Shown piece after piece: positions 14,191-14,500 of a stretch of 64,000 nucleotides of DNA. Location: NCBI RefSeq assembly GCF_044324785.1, contig NZ_CP172127.1. One strand, written 5' to 3'. Each line of letters opens with the position of its first letter. Within the stretch, counting starts at the first letter, position 1. The translations under genes were made by a program, and so were the position numbers. The stretch is from Escherichia coli (GTDB lineage Bacteria > Pseudomonadota > Gammaproteobacteria > Enterobacterales > Enterobacteriaceae). Below the pieces are notes generated by a model. That model was not told where the DNA came from. It was given only the letters and a program-made list of their open reading frames with translations, and made no database searches.

Positions 14191-14304
14191 CCTGAATCCT
14201 CTCGAAAGTGTGTCACTTGGGAGAGCGCCCCGACATTTCCCGCGTCGGGTCACGCGTTTAATTGAGACGGTCAACAAAATCTTAAAAACGAAAGCGGGAT
14301 GGTT

Positions 14305-14410
14305 TTCTCCTTCTCCCTCAGGGAGAGGGCCGGGGGAGGGTTTAGTCGCGTTTTTTACCCCTCACCCTAACCCTCTCCCCAGAGGGGCGAGGGGACTGTC
14401 CGCAGTCGTT
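14305..14410. repeat. GC-rich imperfect-palindrome intergenic element between gabT and gabP (possibly boxC-like; family not confirmed)
   Basis: tctccctcagggagagggccgggggaggg … ccctcaccctaaccctctccccagaggggcgagggg; two adjacent CCCTC/GAGGG inverted-repeat units in otherwise AT-normal DNA. Confidence 0.5.
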
Positions 14411-14500
14411 TTTAACTTTGTCGTTCGCCTCATCGTTATTATTTTTTACTGCATCGTTATCATTCCCTTAGCAACGGTTAACTCTTACAAACGGACATGA

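What the first reader, a model, noticed from the sequence alone, without database searches (positions are those of the whole stretch)
14278..14500. GC-rich double-palindrome element in the gabT–gabP intergenic region
Two adjacent imperfect palindromes built on CCCTC/GAGGG (tctccctcagggagagggccgggggaggg and ccctcaccctaaccctctccccagaggggcgagggg) lie between the gabT stop and the gabP start. This resembles families of E. coli intergenic repeats (boxC-like), which I cannot assign with certainty. The element could act as an mRNA-stabilising or partial-termination structure that uncouples gabP expression from gabDT.
Basis: seen in the sequence. Interest (0 to 1): 0.3.

Follow-up and report, generated by a model that had tools for sequence, protein, structure and literature searches.

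The report
BoxC repeat pair between gabT and gabP
The GC-rich double palindrome between gabT and gabP is an ordinary copy of a known E. coli intergenic repeat (BoxC, also called PIT or TMECO), sitting as an inverted pair in a strain-variable spacer and showing no sign of being a dedicated regulator.

Summary
Both quoted strings are in the gabT–gabP spacer, and the motif does not occur by chance (0 of 100 shuffles).

- **Identity.** It is an inverted pair of BoxC / PIT / TMECO repeats. The unit at 14359-14393 (minus strand) matches the published consensus exactly and equals four K-12 copies. The unit at 14309-14340 (plus strand) is a decayed type B copy that is intact in the same spacer of other strains. 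Type A plus type B inverted pairs are the published arrangement (5 pairs in K-12).
- **Extent.** With its conserved flanks the pair forms a ~170 bp imperfect palindrome (14265-14434). Relative to Citrobacter sp. R56, Pluralibacter and Shimwellia, it is an insertion into an older AT-rich spacer.
- **Frequency.** 1303 of 5426 complete E. coli genomes carry this allele. 4044 carry REP elements there instead, including K-12.
- **Constraint.** The block diverges 8-11% between carriers, while the adjacent 74 bp gabP leader is invariant.
- **Function.** The RNA would form a very stable hairpin (-87 kcal/mol). There is no canonical terminator on the mRNA strand, and published tests found no promoter or terminator activity for these elements.

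The regulatory idea is untested and weakly supported. Already known; low interest.

The parts
14265..14434 (.). The whole BoxC-pair block: a ~170 bp imperfect palindrome, inserted relative to the empty-site spacers of Citrobacter sp. R56, Pluralibacter gergoviae and Shimwellia. The boundary is ambiguous by 1 nt.
   Evidence: Empty versus filled site read. Arm-to-arm alignment gives 57 identities over 90 columns. RNA fold -86.8 kcal/mol, z -8.2. DNA fold -37.2 kcal/mol, z -3.9.
14359..14393 (-). BoxC/TMECO unit of type A (second loop TTA, one mismatch in the Watson-Crick hairpin). The sequence is CCCTCGCCCCTCTGGGGAGAGGGTTAGGGTGAGGG; with the following G at 14358 it is identical to MG1655 TMECO nos. 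9, 16, 19 and 22.
   Evidence: Exact consensus match, 0 expected by chance. Table 1 of PMC4666352.
14309..14340 (+). BoxC/TMECO unit of type B (second loop CCG), degenerate. It reads CCTTCTCCC instead of CCCTCTCCC and has a 1-nt deletion in the third block (GGGG-GAGGG).
   Evidence: Relaxed regex match. The orthologous copy is intact in E. coli 2015C-4944 and in Pseudocitrobacter faecalis.
14341..14358 (.). Central spacer between the two units; it forms the loop of the long hairpin (TTTAGTCGCGTTTTTTAC).
   Evidence: K-12 pairs have comparable central spacers of 16-27 nt.
14394..14434 (.). Extended flank of the type A unit (GACTGTCCGCAGTCGTTTTTAACTTTGTCG...). It is conserved in independent K-12 copies out to about 14424. 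It contains a small hairpin plus T-run on the plus strand, which is antisense to the gab operon.
   Evidence: Alignment A3. Terminator-like hit at 14394-14407 on the plus strand.
14265..14308 (.). Extended flank of the type B unit (AGACGGTCAACAAAATCTTAAAAACGAAAGCGGGATGGTTTTCT). It is the inverted counterpart of the type A flank and partly resembles the left flank of the K-12 ygfF-gcvP copy.
   Evidence: Inverted repeat I1, TTAAAAACGAAAGCGG / CCGCAGTCGTTTTTAA. Alignment A3.
14435..14500 (-). Remnant of the ancestral AT-rich spacer just after the gabT stop codon. It contains GTTGCTAAGGGAATGATAACGATGCAGTAAA and is not part of the repeat.
   Evidence: Homologous block in Citrobacter sp. R56, Pluralibacter gergoviae, Shimwellia and Pseudocitrobacter. 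35% G+C.
14191..14264 (-). Conserved single-copy gabP leader, shared by both spacer alleles and not part of the repeat. It has two hairpins, and the second overlaps the Shine-Dalgarno sequence.
   Evidence: Invariant among BoxC-allele carriers. One place per genome in 5396 of 5426 genomes. Covariation in helix 1.

Best explanation
The element is a canonical inverted pair (type B plus type A) of the E. coli BoxC repeat, also published as PIT element and as triplex motif TMECO.

With its conserved flanks it makes a ~170 bp imperfect palindrome. This block sits as an insertion in an older AT-rich gabT-gabP spacer (shown). It is one of two alleles of this spacer in E. coli; the other, commoner allele carries REP/BIME elements at the same place (shown).

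It most likely has no dedicated function at this locus. It behaves as a dispersed, slowly decaying, selfish or neutral repeat, and its main consequence is local structural instability of the spacer (inferred).

Because it lies inside the gabDTP transcription unit, it should be copied into the mRNA and fold there into a long stand-alone hairpin (inferred). Any effect on gabP would then be a by-product, such as a barrier to 3'-5' exonucleases or weak termination at the U-rich tail (inferred, not shown).
For: **Family membership**
- Exact match to the published consensus, with none in shuffles.
- Identical to four MG1655 copies.
- The family is multi-copy and chromosomal: median 17 places per genome, and 32 of 79484 places on plasmids. 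PMC4666352 counts 23 copies in MG1655.
- The type A + type B inverted pair is the arrangement of all 5 K-12 pairs.
- The flanks align with the K-12 hrpB-mrcB, ygfF-gcvP, alx-sstT and fepB-entC pairs.

**Insertion and polymorphism**
- Empty-site spacers exist in three other genera.
- 1303 of 5426 genomes have this allele, and 4044 of 5426 have the REP allele.

**Lack of constraint**
- The type B unit is decayed in this window but intact elsewhere.
- The block diverges 7.6-11.1%, against 0% for the adjacent leader.

**RNA and DNA structure**
- The block folds as an independent hairpin domain in the full spacer RNA.
- No terminator-like site on the mRNA strand and no promoter-like site.
- Published tests found no promoter or terminator activity, and found instability of such loci.
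Against: - No expression data exist for this allele, so a real effect on the gabT:gabP ratio is not excluded.
- The hairpin base (GCGG/CCGC) is followed on the mRNA strand by UUUCGUUUUUAAGAUUUUG, which is terminator-like in outline.
- The allele is old. It is shared with Pseudocitrobacter at about 8-11% divergence and has persisted at 24% frequency, which could reflect selection rather than neutrality.
- I could not read the published negative tests (Hoyne & Maher 2002). They may not have used inverted pairs with their flanks.
- How BoxC copies spread is unknown.
Confidence: 0.85

Rival explanations
1. The pair is a selected cis-regulatory RNA structure inside the gabDTP mRNA. It would act as a partial intrinsic terminator or a 3'-5' exonuclease barrier that sets the gabDT:gabP ratio. 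This would be functionally equivalent to the REP elements that occupy the same spacer in other strains.
For: - A very stable independent hairpin in the mRNA strand (-86.8 kcal/mol, z -8.2), followed by a U-rich tail.
- The alternative allele carries REP elements at the same place. By established knowledge, REP elements can protect upstream mRNA.
- 4 of the 5 K-12 pairs lie between co-directional genes.
Against: - No terminator-like site on the minus strand.
- PIT elements showed no terminator or promoter activity in published tests, as cited in PMC4666352.
- The empty-site species manage without any repeat.
- The block decays at 8-11% while the leader is invariant.
- Orientation relative to transcription differs between loci.
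Confidence: 0.2
2. The element acts at the DNA level. An intrastrand triplex, G-quadruplex or cruciform would stall replication or transcription and make the spacer a hotspot for rearrangement. On this reading that is its 'function', as an adaptive source of variation.
For: - Unit blocks fit the triplex consensus.
- Holder et al. showed triplex formation by single strands in vitro, and higher variability around such loci.
- Both units contain G3-N-G3-N-G3-N-G3 motifs, which are rare in the window: 3 in 64 kb counting both strands, 2 of them in this element.
- The spacer is indeed polymorphic.
Against: - Holder et al. found no triplex in double-stranded DNA and no in vivo DMS protection.
- Polymorphism is equally expected from simple gain or loss of a repeat.
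- Adaptive value is speculation by the authors themselves.
Confidence: 0.15
3. The ~170 bp block is a discrete, non-autonomous mobile element (MITE-like) that transposed into the spacer.
For: - A clean filled-versus-empty site.
- Imperfect terminal inverted repeats, AGACGGTCAAC versus AGGCGAACGAC.
- A similar left end in the K-12 ygfF-gcvP copy, TTG|AGA..AACAAA.
- Dispersed copies.
Against: - No target-site duplication longer than 1 nt.
- No transposase is known.
- Holder et al. found no association with mobile elements.
- Almost no copies on plasmids.
- Flanks beyond about 14302-14424 are poorly conserved between loci.
Confidence: 0.15
4. Chance GC-rich palindromes with no relation to any repeat family.
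For: None beyond their small size.
Confidence: 0.01

Closest known systems
BoxC (Bachellier, Hofnung and co-workers, 1990s) = PIT elements (Hoyne et al. 2000; Hoyne & Maher 2002) = TMECO (Holder et al. 2015, PMC4666352); specifically the five inverted A+B pairs of E. coli K-12 (hrpB-mrcB, fepB-entC, ygfF-gcvP, alx-sstT, lldD-trmL)
   Same: - Same consensus, with the type A unit identical to four K-12 copies.
- Same tail-to-tail pairing of a type B with a type A unit.
- A similar central gap (about 17 nt, against 16-27 nt in K-12).
- Shared flanks (GTTTTCTCC on one side, GGGGACTGTCNGAGCNCTTTT..TTTGTC on the other).
- Intergenic and chromosomal.
- The locus varies between strains, as published for this family.
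   Different: - K-12 has no copy at this locus; it has REP elements there.
- I could not confirm whether the gabT-gabP locus is among the 62 loci catalogued by Holder et al.; gene names are absent from the held supplements.
- The type B unit here is decayed.
REP / BIME elements
   Same: - Short GC-rich imperfect palindromes in spacers of operons, copied into mRNA.
- They occupy exactly the same gabT-gabP spacer in 75% of E. coli genomes and in E. albertii, E. whittamii, several Citrobacter and Salmonella diarizonae.
   Different: - Unrelated sequence: no REP consensus anywhere in this spacer.
- REP elements have a known mobilising enzyme (RAYT) and documented mRNA-stabilising effects. BoxC has neither.
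Small palindromic non-autonomous repeats such as ERIC/IRU, Neisseria Correia (NEMIS) and pneumococcal RUP/BOX
   Same: - About 100-170 bp palindromic units inserted in intergenic regions.
- Co-transcribed, forming long RNA hairpins.
- Presence or absence varies between strains.
   Different: - Those have clear terminal inverted repeats and, for Correia and RUP, target-site duplications. Some have shown RNase III processing or promoter effects.
- None of this is shown for BoxC pairs, and no target-site duplication is seen here.

Membership tests
BoxC / PIT / TMECO | Consensus CCCTCNCCC-N3-6-GGGNGAGGG-N3-GGGNGAGGG (Holder et al. 2015) | tested here: met
   Exact match at 14359-14393 on the minus strand, with 0 matches in 100 shuffles. 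The second unit at 14309-14340 departs by 1 substitution and a 1-nt deletion, but is intact in orthologous spacers.
BoxC / PIT / TMECO | Dispersed in many copies in the E. coli chromosome | tested here: met
   The 134-nt query finds a median of 17 places per genome (range 1-28) in 5419 of 5426 genomes. Published count: 23 in MG1655. The window's own genome could not be scanned beyond its 64 kb, where there is only this pair.
BoxC / PIT / TMECO | Always intergenic | tested here: met
   It lies between the gabT stop (14501) and the gabP start (14190).
BoxC / PIT / TMECO | When paired: an inverted configuration of one type A (loop TTA) with one type B (loop CCG) unit | tested here: met
   Type B on the plus strand and type A on the minus strand, tail to tail with a ~17 nt gap. 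Rule as stated.
BoxC / PIT / TMECO | Sequence homology extending beyond the 36-nt motif to independent copies (BoxC was described as a ~56 bp unit) | tested here: met
   Alignment A3 with four K-12 pairs is conserved from about 14302 to about 14424. The 56 bp length and 32 copies are quoted in PMC2267715. The original BoxC consensus paper is not held, so the equivalence BoxC = TMECO rests on Holder et al..
BoxC / PIT / TMECO | The single strand folds into an intrastrand purine-motif triplex | not testable with these tools
   No triplex predictor is available. The three blocks have the required composition. Holder et al. showed the triplex for identical oligonucleotides in vitro but not in vivo.
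REP / BIME | REP consensus (GCC[G/T]GATGNCG[A/G]CG ... CTTATC[C/A]GGCCTAC) | tested here: not met
   No match in the spacer or in the window. The K-12, O157 and ST131 alleles contain REP-like sequence that does not align with this allele.
Intrinsic (Rho-independent) terminator | A short GC-rich hairpin immediately followed by a U-run on the transcribed strand | tested here: not met
   The scan found no site on the minus (mRNA) strand. The two hits are on the plus strand. The ~100-nt long hairpin with a U-rich tail falls outside the scan's definition, so weak activity is not excluded.
MITE (miniature inverted-repeat transposable element) | Terminal inverted repeats plus a target-site duplication at a filled versus empty site | tested here: inconclusive
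   A filled/empty site exists and the ends are imperfect inverted repeats (7 of 11). No duplication longer than 1 nt is seen at the junctions AATAATAAC|GATGAGG and CCGTCTC|AATTAAACG.
Known RNA families (Rfam 15) | A match at or above the family's gathering score | tested here: not met
   Only sub-threshold chance hits to miRNA hairpin models, the best 25.7 bits against a gathering score of 60.

The most novel reading that the evidence does not exclude
The BoxC pair plus its ~40 bp arms is a discrete ~170 bp mobile unit with defined ends (5'-AGAC...GCCT-3') that inserts without target duplication. The clean filled/empty gabT-gabP site is then a fossil of such an event. It would be old enough to be shared with Pseudocitrobacter, and it is kept in E. 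coli as a long-lived polymorphism against a REP-occupied allele, possibly because the two alleles set gabP expression differently. This would give BoxC, whose origin and spread are unexplained, a transposition-like mechanism and a phenotype.
Probability: 0.1. Interest if true: 0.45.

Novelty: already known. Interest (0 to 1): 0.15.

Why it matters
It matters little in itself. It mainly tells annotators that this GC-rich structure is a copy of a described repeat family and not a gab-specific regulator.

Two modest points come out of it:
- The gabT-gabP spacer is a tidy natural example of one spacer colonised by two unrelated repeat families (BoxC in 24% of E. coli, REP in 75%), with the uncolonised state surviving in other genera. 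This offers a ready-made isogenic test of whether such repeats affect distal-gene expression in an operon.
- The precise filled/empty junction is the kind of data needed to learn how BoxC copies spread, which is still unknown.

Tried and rejected
- **Rfam scan of the spacer at E <= 10.** Only chance sub-threshold hits to eukaryotic miRNA hairpins; rejected.
- **Promoter/terminator scan.** No promoter-like site. The two terminator-like hits are on the strand antisense to the operon.
- **REP and ERIC consensus searches.** Nothing in the window, so the element is not REP/BIME or ERIC.
- **Ungapped search for the two G-blocks with 2 mismatches.** It missed the type B unit because of its 1-nt deletion; a relaxed regex found it.
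- **Looking for gabT/gabP in the supplements of Holder et al..** No gene names are held, so I could not tell whether this locus is among their 62 catalogued loci.
- **Schneider et al. 2002 on the gabDTPC operon.** Not held.
- **Literature after 2015 on TMECO and on PIT elements.** Nothing new on function.
- **Do the flanking genes split by allele, as a recent import of the BoxC allele would predict?.** They do not. The gabT and gabP flanks are mosaic and unusually diverse in all strains.
- **The ORF at 14072-14500 (plus strand, 142 aa).** It runs antisense through the gabP start and the repeat, and NCBI's annotation pipeline (PGAP) calls no gene in the same spacer of strain KL53. I treated it as spurious without further test.
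- **My first automatic detection of the gabT stop in distant species.**

Full report
**Setting**

All genes of the region are on the minus strand: gabD 15795-17243, gabT 14501-15781, gabP 12790-14190 and csiR 12107-12787. The longest gabP ORF starts at a TTG at 14277. Identity with K-12 b2663, however, puts the real start at the ATG at 14190. The window is E. coli in the broad sense. The best match in a trmD-region control is 99.5%. The gab region reaches only 97.5% against 5426 complete genomes.

**Observation**

Each contains a short imperfect palindrome (I6 and I7). The region from about 14265 to 14434 is therefore one long imperfect palindrome.
- As RNA on the mRNA strand it folds to -86.8 kcal/mol, against -53.4 +/- 4.1 for shuffles, z = -8.2.
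- As DNA it folds to -37.2 kcal/mol, z = -3.9.
- In a fold of the whole spacer it remains a self-contained domain.

**Identity**

A literature search for boxC led to Holder et al. 2015 (PMC4666352). That paper states that BoxC (found in the 1990s), the PIT elements of Hoyne and Maher, and their own 'TMECO' are the same motif. It gives the consensus CCCTCNCCC-N3-6-GGGNGAGGG-N3-GGGNGAGGG.
- The consensus has exactly one match in the window, at 14359-14393 on the minus strand, and none in 100 shuffles.
- With the following G, that unit is identical to TMECO nos. 9, 16, 19 and 22 of K-12 MG1655 (type A, one mismatch; Table 1).
- The other unit (14309-14340, plus strand) is a type B unit (loop CCG) with one substitution and a 1-nt deletion.
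- In the orthologous spacer of E. coli 2015C-4944 and of Pseudocitrobacter faecalis both units are intact. The window copy is therefore simply decayed.
- Holder et al. report 23 copies in MG1655, always intergenic. Five are inverted pairs, each combining a type A with a type B unit. That is the arrangement here.
- I fetched the five K-12 pairs. An alignment of four of them with the gab copies shows conservation well beyond the 36-nt motif, from GTTTTCTCC (about 14302) to ACTTTGTC (about 14424).
- A blastn search with the 134-nt core finds a median of 17 places per E. coli genome, almost all chromosomal.

Membership in the family is thus met on every sequence criterion I could test. Only triplex formation itself cannot be tested with these tools.

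**Locus history**

K-12 has a different, 237-bp spacer at this position, built of REP-like sequence. Only the last ~77 bp before gabP are shared.
- Among 5426 complete genomes, 1303 carry the full 310-bp allele and 4044 carry the K-12-type REP portion.
- The leader next to gabP is present exactly once in 5396 genomes.
- A scan of species-representative genomes with GabP showed the REP type in Escherichia sp. E1V33, E. albertii, E. whittamii, several Citrobacter and Salmonella diarizonae, with variable REP number.
- Citrobacter sp. R56, Pluralibacter gergoviae and Shimwellia have a short AT-rich spacer (…GTTGCTAAnGGAATGATnACGATGCAGTAAA…AATAACAATAcGCGTG…) with no repeat at all.
- The window keeps that AT-rich sequence at 14435-14500 and the AATTAAACGCGTG continuation from 14264 downward. 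Between them sit 170 bp: the BoxC pair and its arms.
- The block is therefore an insertion into the ancestral spacer. Its junctions are AATAATAAC|GATGAGG… and …CCGTCTC|AATTAAACG, with no target duplication beyond one ambiguous base.
- Pseudocitrobacter faecalis carries the same filled allele at 11% divergence in the block. Its flanks are 92-95% identical to E. coli. The insertion is therefore old.
- The gabT and gabP flanks do not sort by allele, so recombination has shuffled them.

**Function**

There is no promoter-like site in the spacer and no terminator-like site on the mRNA strand. Rfam gives nothing. Holder et al. summarise Hoyne & Maher 2002 as showing no promoter or terminator activity, no effect on RNA polymerase and no in vivo effect. 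They themselves found triplex formation only in single strands in vitro, not in duplex DNA or in vivo. They did find markedly higher sequence variability around these loci between strains.

My data fit that picture:
- The spacer is polymorphic.
- The block diverges 7.6% (against 2015C-4944) and 11.1% (against Pseudocitrobacter), while the adjacent 74-bp leader shows 0 differences.
- One unit is visibly decaying.
- Three genera do without any repeat.

The most likely reading is a dispersed selfish or neutral repeat with no dedicated role at gab. What remains possible is a by-product effect of the long RNA hairpin. Its GC-rich base is followed by UUUCGUUUUUAAGAUUUUG, so it could act as a decay barrier or weak terminator. 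This would be analogous to what REP elements can do in the other allele. I give this about 0.2. It needs the allele-swap and 3'-end experiments listed under next steps.

DNA-level readings (triplex, G-quadruplex, cruciform) are compatible with the sequence. Each unit carries a four-run G3 motif, and these are rare in the window. They have no in vivo support.

A MITE-like origin is suggested by the clean filled/empty site and the imperfect terminal repeats. It is weakened by the lack of a target duplication, of a known transposase and of plasmid copies.

**Verdict**

The regulatory interpretation is unsupported but not excluded. The family and its paired form are already described; the only additions here are locus-level ones: two alternative repeat occupants, an empty site, and frequencies.

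**Side finding**

The 74 bp directly upstream of gabP (14191-14264) is the constrained part of this spacer. It is single-copy and invariant among carriers. It is conserved out to Hafnia, with four covarying pairs in a first hairpin. A second hairpin tolerates a 13-nt loop insertion in Shimwellia and covers the Shine-Dalgarno sequence. Its folding energy is not unusual, z = -0.25. It is absent from Salmonella diarizonae and Citrobacter amalonaticus. If anything in this spacer tunes gabP, this is the better candidate.

Noticed in passing
window 14191-14264 (minus strand), directly upstream of the gabP ATG: Conserved single-copy leader: ACGCGTGACCCGACGCGGGAAATGTCGGGGCGCTCTCCCAAGTGACACACTTTCGAGAGGATTCAGG. 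Helix 1 (CCCGAC/GTCGGG) has 4 pairs with changes on both sides across 10 species; 96.7% of cells are paired, against at most 59% when partners are slid. Helix 2/3 (CTCTC..AAGTG/CACTT..GAGAG) overlaps the Shine-Dalgarno sequence and tolerates a 13-nt loop insertion in Shimwellia. There is no Rfam match. Folding energy is not unusual, z -0.25. It could be a translational operator, a small regulatory leader, or a protein-binding palindrome.
   Followed up: partly
L013 (Citrobacter amalonaticus) and L018 (Salmonella enterica subsp. diarizonae), ~110 nt upstream of gabP: The ~60-nt gabP leader block is missing as a clean indel in these two species (…AATAACAATAACGAGGTCATAAG-ATG). It is present in Escherichia, other Citrobacter, Pluralibacter, Shimwellia and Hafnia.
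   Followed up: no
L009 (Pseudocitrobacter faecalis DSM 27453) and L008 (Pseudocitrobacter MAG): Pseudocitrobacter GabP is 99% identical in protein to the window's, whereas Citrobacter GabP is 92-94%. It also carries the same BoxC-pair spacer allele with both units intact. This suggests an old exchange of the gab region between Escherichia and Pseudocitrobacter lineages.
   Followed up: partly
window 12000-18000 (csiR-gabP-gabT-gabD-lhgO): The gab region is unusually diverse. The best match among 5426 complete E. coli genomes is only 97.5% over 6 kb, against 99.5% for a control region at 40000-45000. The 3' 298 bp of gabT is 95-97.7% identical between ordinary E. coli strains, with a mosaic pattern.
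   Followed up: partly
window 14424-14434 and 14509-14519: An exact 11-bp direct repeat, TTCGCCTCATC, joins the gabT-proximal end of the BoxC block and the last codons of gabT. Other BoxC copies have a different sequence at that end. It could be chance, microhomology at insertion, or a partial duplication; unresolved.
   Followed up: partly
L007 (Escherichia sp. E1V33), L010 (E. albertii), L011, L012, L001 (K-12): gabT-gabP spacer: The REP-type allele varies in length (211, 237, 328, 416 bp) through different numbers of tandem REP/BIME units. The first REP begins about 10 nt after the gabT stop codon.
   Followed up: no
window 14394-14407 (plus strand) and K-12 alx-sstT copy (L090): The conserved flank of type A BoxC units contains a small hairpin followed by a T-run (GACTGTCCGCAGTC-GTTTTT here; GGACTGACCGAGTCC-TTTTTT after alx in K-12). 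At gab it faces antisense to the operon. In K-12 it points the same way as alx and might serve as the alx terminator.
   Followed up: no
window 14072-14500 (plus strand): A 142-aa ORF runs antisense through the gabP start and the whole spacer, including the repeat. It is not annotated in strain KL53 and is presumably spurious.
   Followed up: no
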